Assembly (NCBI GenBank): GCA_964410095.1
Contig: CAYPFL010000007.1
Location: forward strand, 10,952-74,951
Direction: 5' to 3'
From: an uncultured Thermodesulfatator sp.
GTDB lineage: Bacteria; Desulfobacterota; Thermodesulfobacteria; Thermodesulfobacteriales; Thermodesulfobacteriaceae
DNA length: 64,000 nucleotides
Every line of letters starts with the position of its first letter. The stretch's first letter is position 1. A program made the position numbers and the translations under genes. Positions 7,699-11,638 of this stretch are shown in pieces. The notes under the pieces were generated by a model. That model was not told the DNA's origin, made no database searches, and saw only the letters and a list, made by a program, of their open reading frames with translations.

Positions 7699-8199
7699 AT
7701 GAACATTAGACCTGAAGTAAAAATAAGAATCGATAAAAAAGGTCTCTTACGATTTATTCCTTGGGGGTTTGATATTTTAAATTTGAAATTTTTGATAACC
7801 GCAGAAAATAATTCTGAGCAAAATATCTTATTACGGTTATGGTATATTCGGATGCTATCAGGAGAAATTGGAGGGGTTGGTGCAGGTAAAGATTTTATAG
7901 ATATTTTTCTTAAAGCCAAAGAGAAGAAAAGCGAGACTGTGTCCTTGAAATTAGAAAGCGGTTTATATAGTTTTGAAGCCGAAGTCCCTCACAAAAGAGG
8001 TTCTTGGGGAGGATATGAAATAAAAGGGTTAAAAACCTTTAGAGTATTAGATAGTAGAAGTCTTATAGTTGGAGTCTTAATAGGAACGTTAATTAGCATA
8101 CTCTTAGCATACTATAAAACGCTGTCCGAAATCGTCCAAAGCTTTTTAAAAGAAACATTGTCAGTAATATTGAATATTGTAATATGTCGAAAACAATGA
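7699..8199 (+). CDS. hypothetical protein with a C-terminal hydrophobic helix
   Basis: 166-aa ORF starting 36 nt after the GTTRRRY site; hydrophobic segment LIVGVLIGTLISILLAYY; no family recognised. Confidence 0.55.
   Translation: MNIRPEVKIRIDKKGLLRFIPWGFDILNLKFLITAENNSEQNILLRLWYIRMLSGEIGGVGAGKDFIDIFLKAKEKKSETVSLKLESGLYSFEAEVPHKRGSWGGYEIKGLKTFRVLDSRSLIVGVLIGTLISILLAYYKTLSEIVQSFLKETLSVILNIVICRKQ
8111..8185 (+). mobile_element. possible heavily decayed attC-like site before the methyltransferase gene
   Basis: GCTGTCCGAAATCG...AACATTGTCAG could be decayed inverted arms, and GTAATAT near 8179 resembles GTTRRRY. Weak. Confidence 0.2.
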
Positions 8200-9434
8200 A
8201 CAACTGGGCAAAAATAATACTTGGCGATAGTCGAAAAATGATAGAAGTTGAAAATAATAGTATAGATTTAGTTGTTACATCCCCCCCTTATTGGCATATT
8301 AAAGACTATGAAGTCGAAGGACAAATTGGATATGGGCAAACTTTACATGAATATCTGAAAGATCTTTATAGAGTTTGGAAAGAATGTTATAGAATTCTTA
8401 AACCGGGAAGAAGACTATGTATAAATATAGGTGATCAATTTGCTCGTTCAATAATTTATGGAAGATATAAGGTTATACCTCTACATGCTGAATTTATAGC
8501 TCAGTGTGAAGATATAGGTTTTGATTATATGGGCTCTATTATATGGCAGAAGAAAACCACAATGAATACTACTGGGGGAGCAAATGTAATGGGGTCATAT
8601 CCTTATCCACCAAATGGTATGGTTGAAATTGATTACGAATTTATACTTATTTTCAAAAAACCGGGTAAAGGTAAAAAAGTTCCAAAGGAAGTTAAAGAAA
8701 AATCAAAGCTAACCAAAAAAGAATGGAAAGAATATTTTTATGGACATTGGTATTTTGGTGGAGCAAGACAGATAGAACACGAAGCAATGTTTCCTGAAGA
8801 ACTTCCAAAAAGGTTAATAAAAATGTATACTTTTGTTGGAGATACAGTTCTAGATCCCTTTTTAGGAAGTGGAACAACCGTAAAAGCAGCTTTAAATTTA
8901 AACAGAAATGCCATTGGTTATGAAATAAATGAAAAATTCCTAGATATTATCAAAGAAAAACTTAGTTTAAAACAGGGTTTACTCCAGTTTAGTCAAAACA
9001 TACAAATAATAAAACGAAAAATAACCATAGAAGTTGATGAGATAAATTATGTGCCAAGAATTAAAAATGCTAAACCTAAAATAGATCCTAAGAAATTTAA
9101 TTTTAAGAATGATCGACTTTACAGAGTAGTGGATATTGTAAATGAACATACAATTAAATTGGATACAGGTTTGTTTGTTAAATTTCTGGGTGTGAAAGTA
9201 ACTAAAAAAGAAGAAGTTTTAAAATATTTAAAAGAATATATTTTGAAAAAAGAAGTCTTTCTACGGTTTGATAATGATGCTGTTTTGAATGAATTTACTA
9301 TTGAAGCATATGTTTATTTAAAAAATAAAATCTTTGTAAATGCTTACCTAATCAAGTCAGGTATGGCTGAAGCAGACAAAACAAAAAGTTATAAATACAA
9401 AAGTAAATTTTTAGAGTTAGAGGGAAAGGCATAA
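8184..9434 (+). CDS. N4-cytosine/N6-adenine DNA methyltransferase (beta-class order) with a C-terminal SNase-like domain
   Basis: DLVVTSPPY precedes DPFLGSGTT. The last ~100 aa follow the staphylococcal-nuclease pattern (..AYVY....FVNAYLIKSGMA). Confidence 0.88.
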   Translation: MSKTMNNWAKIILGDSRKMIEVENNSIDLVVTSPPYWHIKDYEVEGQIGYGQTLHEYLKDLYRVWKECYRILKPGRRLCINIGDQFARSIIYGRYKVIPLHAEFIAQCEDIGFDYMGSIIWQKKTTMNTTGGANVMGSYPYPPNGMVEIDYEFILIFKKPGKGKKVPKEVKEKSKLTKKEWKEYFYGHWYFGGARQIEHEAMFPEELPKRLIKMYTFVGDTVLDPFLGSGTTVKAALNLNRNAIGYEINEKFLDIIKEKLSLKQGLLQFSQNIQIIKRKITIEVDEINYVPRIKNAKPKIDPKKFNFKNDRLYRVVDIVNEHTIKLDTGLFVKFLGVKVTKKEEVLKYLKEYILKKEVFLRFDNDAVLNEFTIEAYVYLKNKIFVNAYLIKSGMAEADKTKSYKYKSKFLELEGKA

Positions 9435-9436
9435 AT

Positions 9437-10105
9437 ATGAGTAAAGAATGGATATTAAACATAGCTACAAATAGATGGGGATTGAATAAGAAAAACAGCG
9501 TAGGTCCAGTATCACAATGGATTCGTGAATGTACTCCCAAAACAATTAAAGATTGGGAAGAGTTCTATTACAAAAAACTTGCAGAATTTTTAAAATCTAA
9601 AGGTATTAAACTGCCACCAGAGGAATATATAAAAGACCTTGGAAGGAAACTCTATATAAAAATTACAGAAGTTATTCAAGCAGAAATAGAAGAAGTGACT
9701 GAGGAAGATTGTATCCAGTATATCTATAATCTTGTAATTAACCGAACTTATGATGGATATTTAACCGAAATAAAAACAATATATGGAAAATTACAGCACG
9801 ATTTAGGAGTAGAAATAAAACCTGCACCGGACGAATGGGATAGATTATACAATGTTGATTTTTATATCCAAATTGACGATAAATATATTGGGTTACAAAT
9901 AAAACCTATTACCTATGAACAGACACCAGAAATTTATAGATGGAAAGAATGGCTTGAAAGAACTCACAAGAAATTTGAGAAAGATCATGGTGGGAAAGTA
10001 TTCATTGTATTTTCAATTAAAAAAGATAACAGAAAAGAAATTTATAATATAGAAGTTATAGAACAAATAAAAGAGGAAATTAAAAGGCTGAAAGGAGAAA
10101 ATTGA
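9437..10105 (+). CDS. MjaI-family type II restriction endonuclease
   Basis: VGPVSQWIREC...WEEFYY N-terminus, NRTYDGY, NVDFYIQ...GLQIKP (PD-D/QxK); starts 2 nt after the MTase stop. Confidence 0.8.
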   Translation: MSKEWILNIATNRWGLNKKNSVGPVSQWIRECTPKTIKDWEEFYYKKLAEFLKSKGIKLPPEEYIKDLGRKLYIKITEVIQAEIEEVTEEDCIQYIYNLVINRTYDGYLTEIKTIYGKLQHDLGVEIKPAPDEWDRLYNVDFYIQIDDKYIGLQIKPITYEQTPEIYRWKEWLERTHKKFEKDHGGKVFIVFSIKKDNRKEIYNIEVIEQIKEEIKRLKGEN

Positions 10106-10166: not shown

Positions 10167-10253
10167 TCGATAGCAAATAAATATGCGGGCTTTTATGTTT
10201 GTCTCAAAATTTGCTTTTATGGGGAAACTTCACATATTCTCGGAATGTTAGGT
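10167..10253 (+). mobile_element. attC-like site 2
   Basis: Left arm AATATGCG(10180-87) is complementary to CACATATT(10231-38) with one mismatch. Ends CGGAAT-GTTAGGT (GTTRRRY at 10247-53); SD and ATG of the next gene follow within 30 nt. Confidence 0.65.
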
Positions 10254-10281
10254 GATATTATACGCTATAGGGAGACAAAGG

Positions 10282-11562
10282 ATGGAAATTGACCCAAGAA
10301 AAAATGGTATTCATTCATTAGCAGAAGCTCTTCAAGCTTTTAAAAAGTTTCACGAAAATCCAAATGATGTTTTTGCTCTAAAAGACGCGATCTTACGAAC
10401 GCATCACGCTTTAGAAACTCTGTTTAAACATATTTTATATCAAATAAATCCTGTATTGTTAGTTAGTGAAAAAATCAAAGTTAAAGAAGTCATAGAAGGA
10501 TACAATAAATGGTTTAGGAGAGAAATAGCAACACCTTTGGATGAGTTATGGACTGTACCTCTTGAAGATACTATTAAACGTCTTCAAGAGCTTAAATTGC
10601 TAAGGGGGTTAGATGAAAGTGAGCGTGAAATTTTTCTCAAAGCTATAAGTGAATTAACGCAATATAGAAATAGTCTTCAACATTTAGGATTAAAAACCGA
10701 TCCTAATAGAATAGGGAGAATTTTGGGAATTATAATACCCAGAGCAATAGAAGTATTAGAGGAAACAGATTCTTATTTATTAAAAATAATTGGTTTGCCA
10801 TCTATATTTGCGTTCCAATCTATAAGTATAATGGATGACTTATGTAAAATTCTACCAGAAGCCCCAAATATAATTGACCTTCTTAGATATAATTACGATA
10901 ATCTAATTAGAGAAGCTATTCAGTTTTTCAAGACGCGTACATTCAATGATCAAATTTTAAAACTGAAGATAATAGATCATGGTAAAGTAGGAGCTCCGCC
11001 ATATATGCCTAACTTAATGGTAGAGGGGTTTCTTGATCTTAATTTTGATGTACATGATCTTATAGGATTAAGACTTGAAGGTGAAGATTCCTATAAGGCT
11101 GAAGTACATATAAGTCGACCCCTTTTTAAAGAAGATAAAAGATTTCCAAATCATGGGATTGCAGAGGGATCGCTAGAGTTTAAAGCATATATAAAGGTTA
11201 GTAAAGCTAAAGGATTTCTAATCTTACCCAACGCTGAAGAAAAGATAGCAGTATTGAGGGATTTGACCGTTATAATTAAAGCTAAACTTGATTATAAGGC
11301 CGAAGCTTTAATGACAGATTGGCATTACGATTGTATTAGAATTCTTCAAGCAAAAGGGGAATTAAATGTTAATCTCACTTTAGTTCCGAAAGGCTATAAA
11401 AGTAAAAAAATTGAATTAATTGGACGGTATCAATCAAACTTAACCGAAGAAAATGCACCTTTTAGACTTCATGTGTTCTTTGAACCCGATGGCTCTTTAA
11501 AGGATGGGCCAATACATTTAGAATGGATTATGAATACCAAAGGAGATGTTGAATTCATGTAA
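10282..11562 (+). CDS. HEPN-domain protein with an unrecognised beta-rich C-terminal domain
   Basis: N-terminal helical NGIHSL...AILRTHHALETLFKHIL pattern and RX4H motif (RNSLQH). ATG at 10282 follows GGGAGA. Confidence 0.7.
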   Translation: MEIDPRKNGIHSLAEALQAFKKFHENPNDVFALKDAILRTHHALETLFKHILYQINPVLLVSEKIKVKEVIEGYNKWFRREIATPLDELWTVPLEDTIKRLQELKLLRGLDESEREIFLKAISELTQYRNSLQHLGLKTDPNRIGRILGIIIPRAIEVLEETDSYLLKIIGLPSIFAFQSISIMDDLCKILPEAPNIIDLLRYNYDNLIREAIQFFKTRTFNDQILKLKIIDHGKVGAPPYMPNLMVEGFLDLNFDVHDLIGLRLEGEDSYKAEVHISRPLFKEDKRFPNHGIAEGSLEFKAYIKVSKAKGFLILPNAEEKIAVLRDLTVIIKAKLDYKAEALMTDWHYDCIRILQAKGELNVNLTLVPKGYKSKKIELIGRYQSNLTEENAPFRLHVFFEPDGSLKDGPIHLEWIMNTKGDVEFM

Positions 11563-11576
11563 AGGTCTATGTAATG

Positions 11577-11638
11577 TTGTTAATATAGATAATATACCTG
11601 ACTTCGTATGTCCGCATATTATTTTCCGAAATTGACGC
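11577..11638 (+). mobile_element. degenerate attC-like site 3
   Basis: 14 nt after the HEPN stop. AGATAATATAC(11587-97) pairs with GCATATTATTT(11614-24), contains CGCATATT as in site 2, and is followed by CCGAAAT. The terminal GTT is lost. Confidence 0.45.

What the first reader, a model, noticed from the sequence alone, without database searches (positions are those of the whole stretch)
10282..11562. Orphan HEPN-domain protein: candidate single-gene anti-phage effector
Seen: the N-terminal ~170 aa have a HEPN-like helical pattern with an intact RX4H motif (RNSLQH). It is fused to ~230 aa of beta-rich sequence I cannot assign. It sits directly after an RM pair, bounded by attC-like sites. 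Known: RX4H HEPN domains are RNases used in abortive infection and TA systems. Inference: the C-terminal domain is a phage sensor gating a HEPN RNase. No MNT antitoxin is adjacent.
Basis: partly seen in the sequence, partly recalled or inferred. Interest (0 to 1): 0.7.

Follow-up and report, generated by a model that had tools for sequence, protein, structure and literature searches.

The report
Mobile stand-alone HEPN RNase, novel beta domain
The gene is real and encodes a two-domain protein, a well-supported HEPN-type RNA-cutting module joined to a beta-rich domain found in no other protein; it moves as a single gene between heat-loving bacteria and archaea, and it is most likely an untested kind of anti-virus or anti-plasmid "suicide" nuclease.

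Summary
The ORF 10282-11562 (+, 426 aa) is real. It belongs to a coherent full-length family with no Pfam, NCBIfam or PHROGs model.

Residues 1-170 meet every sequence and fold criterion of a catalytic HEPN domain. Foldseek returns only HepT and Csm6 HEPN structures. [quoted passage not shown] This domain is a sister of DUF3644/PADLOC PDC-S64. Elsewhere it is fused to SWI2/SNF2, ResIII, OLD-TOPRIM, NERD, methylase and STAND modules.

Residues 183-426 (two helices plus about 11 long strands) occur only in this family. They have no convincing structural match.

The RM pair upstream (N4/N6 methylase plus R.MjaI-like) is confirmed, and no MNT is adjacent. The attC-like sites are not supported.

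The gene moves alone. It is 80-84% identical in DNA to copies in Aquificota and Archaeoglobi MAGs, and the identity stops at the gene ends. It sits in integrase islands, TA-rich islands and a P2-like prophage, with no conserved partner gene. In at least 7 other vent or sediment metagenomes, sister strains keep the RM but carry a 1018-bp deletion that removes the HEPN domain.

Most likely it is a self-contained conflict-system RNase. The sensor role of the C-domain is inferred only.

The parts
10282..11562 (+). Complete gene (426 aa plus stop) of a two-domain protein: HEPN domain plus beta-rich domain
   Evidence: ORF list. 79 full-length homologue clusters, none with a Pfam domain. AlphaFold2 model pLDDT 87.9, pTM 0.71.
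10247..10281 (+). 35-nt upstream leader with the ribosome-binding site (GGGAGA...AAGG), the only flank shared with other copies of the gene
   Evidence: blastn homology to L004 and L006 starts at 10247. Sequence read.
10282..10791 (+). HEPN domain, aa 1-170: helix 1 (5-25), helix 2 (30-55), helical insert (57-103), helix 3 (112-134), helix 4 (141-170)
   Evidence: Domain model pLDDT 89.1. The Foldseek PDB search has no hit below E 1e-3; its best hits are all HEPN: Csm6 5yjc, and HepT 8xdj/6m6u/7bxo with probability 1.00, TM 0.66-0.69 relative to the target, rmsd 3.4 A. PADLOC PDC-S64 E 3.9e-8, plus weak CARF_HEPN/Csx1 hits.
10414..10428 (+). E45-T-L-F-K49: the Ex3[KR] motif in helix 2, the second active-site element of HEPN
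   Evidence: Translation. E45 and K49 invariant in 45 sequences and in 83 distant N-domain relatives. Motif definition in PMC3710099.
10666..10683 (+). R129-N-S-L-Q-H134: the Rx4H catalytic motif at the end of helix 3
   Evidence: Translation. R129 and H134 invariant, N130 93%. RNxxxH invariant in the 83 relatives.
10792..10827 (+). Variable, low-confidence linker (aa 171-182)
   Evidence: pLDDT below 50 at 173-175. Variable length in the alignment.
10828..11559 (+). Family-specific C-terminal domain (aa 183-426): two helices (183-216, with the conserved LLRxNYDxLI) followed by about 11 strands, four of them 18-22 residues long
   Evidence: Model. Found only together with this HEPN domain or as fragments. 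No Pfam, PDB or BFVD match. omega 0.16-0.47.
10208..11225 (.). 1018-bp segment (promoter region, start codon, codons 1-315) that is deleted in sister populations
   Evidence: Joint 10207->11226 in contigs of runs X2, X3, X4, X6, X7, X9, and a matching loose end in X5. Assembled JGI contigs L017 and L019 carry the 133-aa remnant P0220.
8184..9434 (+). Neighbour: type II DNA methyltransferase (N4/N6 class) with a C-terminal extension
   Evidence: PF01555 E 1.2e-51. PADLOC MTase_II E 1e-130.
9437..10105 (+). Neighbour: MjaI-family type II restriction endonuclease
   Evidence: PF09568 RE_MjaI E 3.3e-51. PADLOC REase_II E 3e-38.
7699..8199 (+). Neighbour: 166-aa ORF of unknown function that overlaps the methylase start and is syntenic in sister strains
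   Evidence: ORF list. No family hit. Present in L017 and L019.

Best explanation
The gene encodes a self-contained, horizontally mobile HEPN ribonuclease of a conflict system (anti-virus or anti-plasmid immunity, or superinfection exclusion by mobile elements).

Shown:
- The N-terminal 170 residues are a canonical catalytic HEPN domain of a DUF3644-like clade.
- That clade is reused in many defence-type architectures.
- The C-terminal 245 residues are a constrained domain unique to this family.
- The gene travels alone between bacteria and archaea, lands in mobile or defence islands, and is readily lost.

Inferred:
- Two HEPN domains dimerise to form a composite, metal-independent RNase site (R129, N130, H134, E45, K49). 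It cleaves cellular or invader RNA and leaves 2',3'-cyclic phosphate ends.
- The enzyme is kept latent in uninfected cells. The family-specific beta-rich domain is the regulatory part. It may recognise an invader-derived trigger, hold the HEPN site closed, or choose the RNA substrate.
- Activation stops growth or clears the invader.
For: HEPN identity:
- Foldseek on the domain model returns only HEPN RNases in the top 24 hits: Csm6 5yjc, and HepT 8xdj/6m6u/7bxo/5yep with probability 0.94-1.00 and TM up to 0.69.
- All four defining features from PMC3710099 are present and invariant.

Clade and architectures:
- hhalign against the N-domain relatives gives 99.7%, E 1e-26.
- 34 of 83 relatives touch Pfam DUF3644. 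Their partner domains are SWI2/SNF2, ResIII, OLD-TOPRIM, NERD, N6_Mtase and STAND.
- All 45 family members hit PADLOC PDC-S64. PDC-S64 is a candidate found embedded in BREX, DISARM or type I RM.

Precedent:
- The single-gene DUF3644-HEPN system HEC-08 needs its Rx4-6H histidine for phage defence.
- The monogenic HEPN system Ishtar clears plasmid RP4.

Mobility:
- DNA identity of 80-84% to Aquificota and Archaeoglobi copies is confined to the gene.
- dS is only 0.2-0.7 across the two domains of life.
- Gene GC is below its flanks in 10 of 11 other loci.
- One of the window's only three CTAG sites lies inside the gene.

Context: RM here; integrases, Prim-Pol/Rep and HEPN_AbiV; MNT-HepT, PIN and IS256; a P2-like prophage.

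No conserved partner in 29 loci. Both domains are under purifying selection. Sister strains carry a deletion allele.
Against: - No experiment exists for this family. No RNA-seq run was found.
- Context is heterogeneous. About half of the 29 loci show only housekeeping neighbours within 4 kb, so defence-island enrichment is not demonstrated statistically.
- Foldseek E-values for the HEPN hits are modest (3e-3 to 0.1), although probabilities are high.
- Nothing tested here shows what the C-domain does. It is mildly acidic (median pI 5.5), which does not suggest a generic RNA-binding surface.
- Oligomeric state and inter-domain contacts could not be examined.
Confidence: 0.55

Rival explanations
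1. RM-coupled back-up nuclease, on the PrrC/EcoprrI model. The HEPN protein is a functional third component of the adjacent MjaI-type RM system. It is held inactive by the RM proteins and released when a virus blocks restriction.
For: - The gene lies on the same strand, 176 nt after the REase, with no terminator-like site between them.
- Relatives of the N-domain are fused to RM-type helicases and methylases.
- PDC-S64 was defined by embedding in BREX, DISARM or type I RM.
- 16 HEPN clades are RM-linked according to PMC3710099.
Against: - Only the window and L036, of 29 non-redundant loci, have a methylase within 4 kb.
- The DNA shared with other copies stops at the gene ends.
- Sister strains keep M and R under strong purifying selection (omega 0.04-0.10) after losing the HEPN domain.
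- There is no ABC-ATPase or other RM-docking module.
Confidence: 0.12
2. Addiction or toxin-antitoxin role. The protein is a toxin that stabilises the mobile element carrying it. It is neutralised by an unrecognised small or RNA antitoxin, or by its own C-terminal domain acting as a fused antitoxin.
For: - It is frequently cargo of integrase, Rep or Prim-Pol elements.
- MNT-HEPN and PIN modules are neighbours in L004, L023 and L025.
- HEPN toxins of TA pairs are its closest structural matches.
- The deletion removes the putative toxin part and leaves the C-terminal part.
Against: - No neighbour of 60 aa or more is conserved across loci.
- There are no tandem repeats that could encode a ToxI-like RNA.
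- The shared DNA is the gene alone.
- The C-domain is not MNT-like.
- The remnant in sister strains evolves under relaxed constraint (omega 0.55 against 0.16-0.47 for intact C-domains, from only 13 differences).
Confidence: 0.15
3. Ishtar-like anti-plasmid immunity. The RNase degrades an RNA needed by an incoming replicon, for example a replication primer, and so causes loss of the element without killing the cell.
For: - The overall plan matches Ishtar: monogenic, N-terminal HEPN (DUF4145 or DUF3644) plus a C-terminal domain of unknown function. Ishtar is also patchy and defence-associated.
- The family often sits on archaeal integrative elements, which compete with other elements.
Against: - Profile comparison with 15 Ishtar sequences gives 6.6% probability, aligning the RNxxxH region only. 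For the C-domain it gives 0.07%.
- None of the listed Ishtar homologues has this clade's NG(I/V)HS or HH(A/G/S)xEL motif strings searched for.
- Ishtar proteins are 160-260 aa, against 426 aa here.
Confidence: 0.12
4. Housekeeping or non-catalytic HEPN protein, acting in RNA processing or nucleotide binding with no role in conflicts.
For: - Some loci sit among housekeeping genes: cysS/gltX in L007, Kae1/Bud32 in L006, adenylate kinase in L005.
- Some HEPN domains are non-catalytic.
Against: - The catalytic motif is invariant.
- The distribution is patchy and crosses the two domains of life, with recent transfer.
- The gene has anomalous GC.
- It has been lost by deletion in most sampled sister populations.
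Confidence: 0.05

Closest known systems
DUF3644 / EC042_2821-type HEPN domains (Pfam PF12358; Anantharaman et al. 2013, PMC3710099)
   Same: HEPN four-helix core with RNxxxH and Ex3K. Relatives of this N-domain reach DUF3644 at sub-threshold scores (34 of 83, best E 4e-6). Five of 45 family members hit PADLOC's DUF3644 model. The clade has the same habit of fusing to RM-type nucleases and helicases.
   Different: The window protein itself gives no DUF3644 hit at E <= 1. It carries clade-specific motifs (NG[IV]HS in helix 1, KDxxxRxHHxxETLFK in helix 2). Its C-terminal partner is a beta-rich domain, not a wHTH, REase or Zn-ribbon.
PADLOC phage-defence candidate PDC-S64 (Payne et al., bioRxiv 10.1101/2024.01.29.577857)
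   Same: [quoted passage not shown] It is also a single-gene candidate.
   Different: Only profile positions 8-128 of 339 are matched. The PDC-S64-type proteins carry a ~130-aa C-terminal domain that looks like a NERD or PD-(D/E)xK nuclease. PDC-S64 itself is untested.
HEC-08 (single-gene DUF3644-HEPN defence system; same preprint)
   Same: One protein with an N-terminal DUF3644-type HEPN and a C-terminal region without structural relatives. Defence depends on the Rx4-6H histidine. This is the best experimental precedent for how the window protein may work.
   Different: The C-terminus of HEC-08 is made of zinc-finger-like domains. No sequence comparison could be made here, because the sequence was not at hand.
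Ishtar anti-conjugation system (bioRxiv 10.64898/2026.07.06.735840)
   Same: Monogenic, with an N-terminal HEPN plus a small uncharacterised alpha/beta C-domain. Patchy, mobile distribution, including phage satellites and integrons.
   Different: Not homologous beyond the HEPN motif (hhalign 6.6%; C-domain 0.07%). Ishtar proteins are about half the size.
HepT toxins of MNT-HEPN toxin-antitoxin pairs (e.g. PDB 6m6u, 7bxo, 8xdj, 5yep) and Csm6 HEPN domains (5yjc, 6tug)
   Same: Closest solved folds to the N-domain (TM 0.66-0.69 relative to the target, rmsd 3.4 A). The catalytic motif sits in the same position.
   Different: There is no MNT partner and no CARF domain. The insert between helices 2 and 3 is about 45 residues larger. 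Sequence identity is 8-17%.

Membership tests
HEPN superfamily (catalytic branch) | [quoted passage not shown] | tested here: met
   Model helices are 5-25, 30-55, insert 57-103, 112-134 and 141-170. The top Foldseek hits are all HEPN proteins with probability up to 1.00. The definition is from PMC3710099.
HEPN superfamily (catalytic branch) | Rx4-6H motif at the end of helix 3, with a polar residue (N/D/H) right after R | tested here: met
   R129-N130-S-L-Q-H134 ends helix 112-134. R and H are invariant and N is 93% conserved in 45 sequences.
HEPN superfamily (catalytic branch) | Second conserved acidic residue in helix 2, typically Ex3[KR] | tested here: met
   E45-T-L-F-K49 lies in helix 30-55. 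Both E and K are invariant.
HEPN superfamily (catalytic branch) | Metal-independent RNase activity giving 2',3'-cyclic phosphate ends | not testable with these tools
   Needs a biochemical assay.
Pfam DUF3644 (PF12358) | Score at or above the Pfam gathering threshold (27.6 bits) | tested here: not met
   The window protein has no hit at E <= 1. Relatives reach a best whole-protein E-value of 4.3e-6, and the one listed example (P0154) scores 26.8 bits against the 27.6-bit cut-off. It is a sister clade, not a member by Pfam's rule.
PADLOC PDC-S64 | Match over the whole 339-position profile (HEPN plus its own C-terminal domain) | tested here: not met
   Only residues 7-148 match profile positions 8-128. 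The C-domain is unrelated.
HEPN-MNT (HepT/MntA) toxin-antitoxin | Adjacent minimal nucleotidyltransferase antitoxin gene | tested here: not met
   No NTP_transf_2 gene flanks the gene in the window. MNT genes near some homologues (L004, L023, L025) belong to their own HEPN partners where those were resolved (L004, L023).
CARF-HEPN (Csm6/Csx1) | CARF (Rossmann-like) sensor domain joined to the HEPN domain | tested here: not met
   PADLOC CARF_HEPN hits cover only the HEPN part of those profiles (positions 265-368). The other domain is helix plus long beta strands, not a Rossmann fold.
Integron gene cassette | attC recombination site (imperfect inverted repeat that folds as single-stranded DNA) at the 3' end of the cassette | tested here: not met
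   Flank folds have z = 0.49 and 0.22. Homology between copies ends 15 nt after the stop codon. The rest of the window was not screened for an integron integrase, and the attC core-site (R''/R') pattern scan did not run.
Ishtar | Sequence or profile homology to Ishtar1/2 family members | tested here: not met
   hhalign gives 6.6% for the full length and 0.07% for the C-domain. None of the six clade motif strings searched for occurs in the paper's held supplementary files, which include the homologue table S3.
PrrC/RloC-type RM-linked anticodon nuclease | N-terminal ABC-ATPase domain and conserved embedding in an RM operon | tested here: not met
   No ATPase domain is present. RM linkage is seen in 2 of 29 loci.

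The most novel reading that the evidence does not exclude
This is a previously undescribed single-protein immune module of hydrothermal bacteria and archaea. A DUF3644-like HEPN RNase is controlled by a new fold, a large sheet of 18-22-residue strands with no relatives in the PDB or BFVD. That fold directly senses a virus or plasmid component. The whole module hops between the two prokaryotic domains of life as a bare gene by an unknown mechanism.
Probability: 0.35. Interest if true: 0.65.

Novelty: new variant of a known kind. Interest (0 to 1): 0.5.

Why it matters
Single-gene HEPN nucleases are emerging as compact immune systems; HEC-08 and Ishtar are examples. Almost all known examples come from mesophilic bacteria. 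Archaea look poor in known defences (PMC12988326).

This family is mostly archaeal and thermophilic. It has no profile in Pfam, NCBIfam or PHROGs. PADLOC touches it only through a partial match of the HEPN domain to PDC-S64. It pairs a textbook HEPN active site with a domain of unknown fold.

If the domain is a trigger sensor, it would add a new recognition module to the defence toolkit, and a thermostable, programmable-by-trigger RNase.

Nature has also supplied a control. Sister populations have the same RM genes but carry a clean deletion of the HEPN domain. That makes the cost and benefit of the gene directly comparable in vent metagenomes.

Tried and rejected
- Pfam, NCBIfam and PHROGs on the whole protein gave nothing. 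The only hit was NleF at E 0.028, which is noise.
- Sequence and profile searches of the PDB with the protein, the family, the C-domain and the N-domain clade gave nothing significant. The best hits were GatC at E 2.2, AdoMetDC at E 0.67 and HepT at E 0.8.
- Foldseek with the full-length model against the PDB and BFVD returned outer-membrane barrels, gasdermin pores and ssRNA-phage maturation proteins. TM-scores were 0.06-0.27 and rmsd 12-40 A. I read these as long-hairpin artefacts, not homology. No conserved transmembrane segment was found.
- attC/integron reading: rejected. The first attC pattern search failed on syntax.
- An 11-nt inverted repeat (10180-10190 and 11610-11620) flanks the gene. 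It lies outside the DNA shared with other copies and is at chance level in this AT-rich region.
- Conserved partner gene: none found in two all-against-all neighbour comparisons.
- RNA antitoxin repeats: none.
- RNA-seq evidence: no run found.
- Ishtar membership: rejected.
- C-domain in other architectures: none found with a C-domain profile against 5.8 billion proteins. In the 1.84-billion representative search, only the best 150 of 339 hits were visible.
Full report
**1. The observation**

The window has an ORF at 10252-11562 (GTG start) whose internal ATG at 10282 gives a 426-aa protein. All homologues start with MEIDPR... at that ATG. DNA similarity to other copies begins only 35 nt upstream and includes a GGGAGA/AAGG ribosome-binding region. 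RNSLQH is encoded at 10666-10683.

The two genes directly upstream are a type II N4/N6 DNA methyltransferase (8184-9434, PF01555 E 1e-51) and an MjaI-family restriction endonuclease (9437-10105, PF09568 E 3e-51). No nucleotidyltransferase gene is adjacent.

The claimed attC-like sites do not hold up.
- Both flanks, folded as single-stranded DNA, are as unstable as shuffled controls (z = 0.49 and 0.22).
- The repeat search returns only chance-level AT-rich matches.
- No terminator-like or tandem-repeat element is present.

**2. The protein family**

A search of 5.8 billion proteins finds 79 clusters, nearly all 410-445 aa, aligned end to end at 33-85% identity. None has a Pfam domain, and nearly all those that a source names are called 'hypothetical protein'. 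Pfam, NCBIfam and PHROGs give nothing for the window protein.

An exhaustive HMMER search of 1.84 billion representatives gives 339 hits.
- About 40 full-length representatives cover both domains.
- A few are short fragments.
- A large group matches only residues 1-150/200.

**3. The N-terminal domain is a catalytic HEPN domain**

AlphaFold2 on a 45-sequence alignment gives a confident model (pLDDT 87.9). A model of residues 1-182 alone has pLDDT 89.1 and pTM 0.84.

Foldseek of the domain against the PDB returns only HEPN proteins in the first 24 places.
- S. epidermidis and E. italicus Csm6.
- The HepT toxins of MntA-HepT and HEPN-MNT pairs: 8xdj, 6m6u, 7bxo, 7ae6 and 5yep.
- Probabilities are 0.94-1.00, TM-scores relative to the target reach 0.69, and rmsd is 3.4 A.
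- E-values are modest (3e-3 to 0.1) and identities are 8-17%. This is a fold-level match, not a sequence-level one.

The four features that Anantharaman et al. use to define a catalytic HEPN domain (PMC3710099) are all present.
[quoted passage not shown] The model gives helices 5-25, 30-55, insert 57-103, 112-134 and 141-170.
- Rx4-6H at the end of helix 3 (R129...H134).
- A polar residue after the R (N130).
- Ex3[KR] in helix 2 (E45-TLF-K49).

R129, H134, E45 and K49 are invariant in the family. They are also invariant in 83 distant relatives of the domain.

**4. Where the N-domain belongs**

All 45 aligned members match the PADLOC candidate PDC-S64, but only over the first 128 of its 339 positions. 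A few members also touch CARF_HEPN, Csx1 and DUF3644 models.

The N-domain-only relatives align to the window's domain with hhalign probability 99.7%, E 1e-26. They share the motifs ENGxHSL, LKxxxxxxHHxxELLxK and RNxxxH.

Of 83 such relatives, 34 give sub-threshold hits to Pfam DUF3644. Anantharaman et al. identified DUF3644 as a HEPN family that overlaps their EC042_2821 group of RM operons.

Their other domains are typical of conflict systems:
- SWI2/SNF2 ATPase (9 proteins)
- ResIII
- OLD-type TOPRIM
- NERD-like nuclease
- an Eco57I/MmeI-type methylase
- STAND NTPases

PDC-S64 is one of 145 untested candidates found embedded in BREX, DISARM or type I RM systems. In the same study the single-gene system HEC-08, a DUF3644 HEPN plus zinc-finger-like domains, protected against phage only with its Rx4-6H histidine intact.

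**5. The C-terminal domain is exclusive and unassignable**

Residues 183-426 form two helices followed by about eleven strands. The helices (183-216) carry the near-invariant LLRxNYDxLI. Four of the strands are 18-22 residues long.

A profile of this domain alone recovers only family members and fragments from 5.8 billion proteins. In one search every visible C-domain match is also a family member or a fragment.

Nothing significant appears in Pfam or in PDB sequence space. Foldseek against the PDB and BFVD gives 8-stranded outer-membrane barrels, gasdermin pores and levivirus maturation proteins. TM-scores are 0.06-0.27 and rmsd 12-40 A, which I read as generic long-hairpin similarity.

The domain has no conserved hydrophobic segment and is mildly acidic (median pI 5.5). 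Neither a membrane pore nor a generic basic RNA-binding platform is suggested.

Conserved polar residues could line a pocket: R202, Y205, D206, D232, Y271, R326, Y338, H348, N391, R395, H397, D403, E414 and W415. I could not map them in 3D.

The domain is functional. In pairwise comparisons of eight intact copies, omega is 0.16-0.47, against 0.10-0.34 for the HEPN domain.

**6. The gene is a lone traveller**

Homologues at 75-80% protein identity lie in an Aquificota MAG and in two Archaeoglobi MAGs. A 32% homologue lies in a Deltaproteobacteria MAG.

DNA identity to the Aquificota and Archaeoglobi copies is 80-84% and runs from 10247 to 11577 only, which is the gene plus 35 and 15 nt. Synonymous divergence between bacterial and archaeal copies is only 0.2-0.7, so transfer between the two domains of life was recent.

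In 10 of 11 other loci the gene is 0.2 to 20 GC points poorer than its flanks.

Two all-against-all comparisons of neighbours, over 12 and then 29 non-redundant loci, find no conserved partner. They find only recurrent integrases, MNT/HEPN pairs and methylases.

Contexts include:
- archaeal integrase islands, one with HEPN_AbiV;
- an element with Prim-Pol, ParB and an integrase;
- a TA-dense Aquificota island with two MNT-HEPN pairs, PIN and an IS256 transposase;
- a P2-like prophage, where a 28%-identical full-length member with an intact RNQLQH lies beside the baseplate and tail-fibre genes;
- a locus with TIR and one with SIR2.

About half of the loci show only housekeeping neighbours. The defence-island association is therefore suggestive, not demonstrated.

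**7. A natural deletion**

The window comes from a hydrothermal-vent metagenome (run X1). Contigs of six other vent or sediment metagenomes (X2, X3, X4, X6, X7, X9) join 10207 directly to 11226. A loose end in X5 matches the same joint. X1 has the intact gene at about 90x depth and no joint.

Assembled JGI contigs L017 and L019 show the same synteny as the window: Hsp33, pyrD, pyrK, CxxCxxCC protein, the 166-aa ORF, methylase and R.MjaI. After these comes a 133-aa remnant, P0220, in which a short upstream frame is fused to residues 316-426.

Between the window and these strains, the M and R genes have omega 0.04-0.10 and the remnant has 0.55, based on only 13 differences.

Three things follow.
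- The HEPN domain is dispensable.
- The RM system does not need it.
- The gene turns over quickly, as expected for a costly conflict gene.

**8. How it most likely works**

Shown: a complete HEPN active site, a constrained private C-domain, solitary mobility, and presence/absence polymorphism.

Inferred from the HEPN literature (PMC3710099; HepT and Csm6 structures): dimerisation builds the RNase site, and cleavage is metal-independent.

Because no antitoxin travels with the gene, the enzyme must be latent by itself. The only family-specific part available for that control is the C-domain. It could act by autoinhibition, by trigger binding, or by choosing the substrate. I rank the abortive-infection or exclusion reading first (0.55).

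The rivals are:
- RM-coupled back-up on the PrrC model (0.12), weakened by sections 6 and 7;
- an addiction toxin with a hidden or fused antitoxin (0.15);
- Ishtar-like plasmid clearance (0.12);
- a housekeeping role (0.05).

**9. Comparison with known systems**

The protein works like HEC-08 and Ishtar, which are monogenic, HEPN-first and carry an unknown C-terminal domain. It is a member of neither.
- Profile comparison with 15 Ishtar sequences from the paper's Table S3 aligns only the RNxxxH region (6.6%). The C-domain does not align at all (0.07%).
- None of the six clade motif strings searched for occurs in the paper's held supplementary files, which include that table.
- It fails the Pfam threshold for DUF3644.
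- It matches only a third of the PDC-S64 profile.

It is a member of the HEPN superfamily, with all sequence and fold criteria met.

**10. Verdict**

The finding is real and the HEPN call is correct. The attC claim is wrong, and the 'sensor' role is plausible but untested. The architecture is a new variant within the known class of single-protein HEPN conflict nucleases. Interest is moderate (0.5). It is not categorically new, but it is a clean, testable family with a novel domain, inter-domain mobility and a natural knock-out.

Noticed in passing
window 10208-11225; loci L017, L018, L019: Sister populations in at least 7 other vent or sediment metagenomes carry an identical 1018-bp deletion that removes the start and codons 1-315 of the gene. 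It leaves a 133-aa fusion ORF (P0220). The RM genes are retained under strong purifying selection.
   Followed up: yes
window 1-64000; sites at 8850, 8940, 11173: CTAG, the recognition site I recall for MjaI (not checked here), occurs only 3 times in 64 kb, against about 169 expected from dinucleotide-preserving shuffles. All three sites lie in the methylase gene (two) and the HEPN gene (one). The host genome is therefore purged of the site, while these genes look like recent imports.
   Followed up: partly
window 7699-8199: A 166-aa ORF with no family match overlaps the methylase start by 16 nt and is syntenic in sister strains (omega about 0.5-0.66). It may be a third, unknown component or regulator of the RM operon.
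   Followed up: partly
window 8184-9434 (aa ~340-416): The methyltransferase has a C-terminal extension of about 150 aa with weak staphylococcal-nuclease-like hits (SNase E 8e-4; thermonuclease NucI E 1e-3). The full length matches one PADLOC MTase_II model, so the extension is a family trait.
   Followed up: no
L004 4406-5686; L005 10001-11295; L006 7418-8751: Copies of the gene in an Aquificota MAG and two Archaeoglobi MAGs are 80-84% identical in DNA to the window copy, with dS 0.2-0.7. This indicates recent transfer of a bare gene between Bacteria and Archaea. No shared flanking repeats or recombination sites were seen.
   Followed up: partly
L016 2772-4091 (IMG/VR contig, P2-like prophage): A 28%-identical full-length family member with an intact RNQLQH sits as an AT-rich insert (41% GC against 58.5% for the rest of the locus). 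It lies next to the baseplate V, J, tail protein I and tail-fibre genes of a P2-like prophage.
   Followed up: partly
proteins P0129, P0137, P0154 (N-domain relatives, ~320 aa): The PDC-S64-like relatives pair the same HEPN domain with a short C-terminal domain carrying a D...(D/E)xK-like pattern and a weak NERD hit. These untested candidates may therefore combine an RNase and a DNase.
   Followed up: no
L028 202-930; L029 135-668; L033 2857-3537: A roughly 180-240-aa protein with no Pfam match recurs next to the family gene in three metagenome loci (81-82% identical to each other). These three loci may simply be related elements.
   Followed up: no
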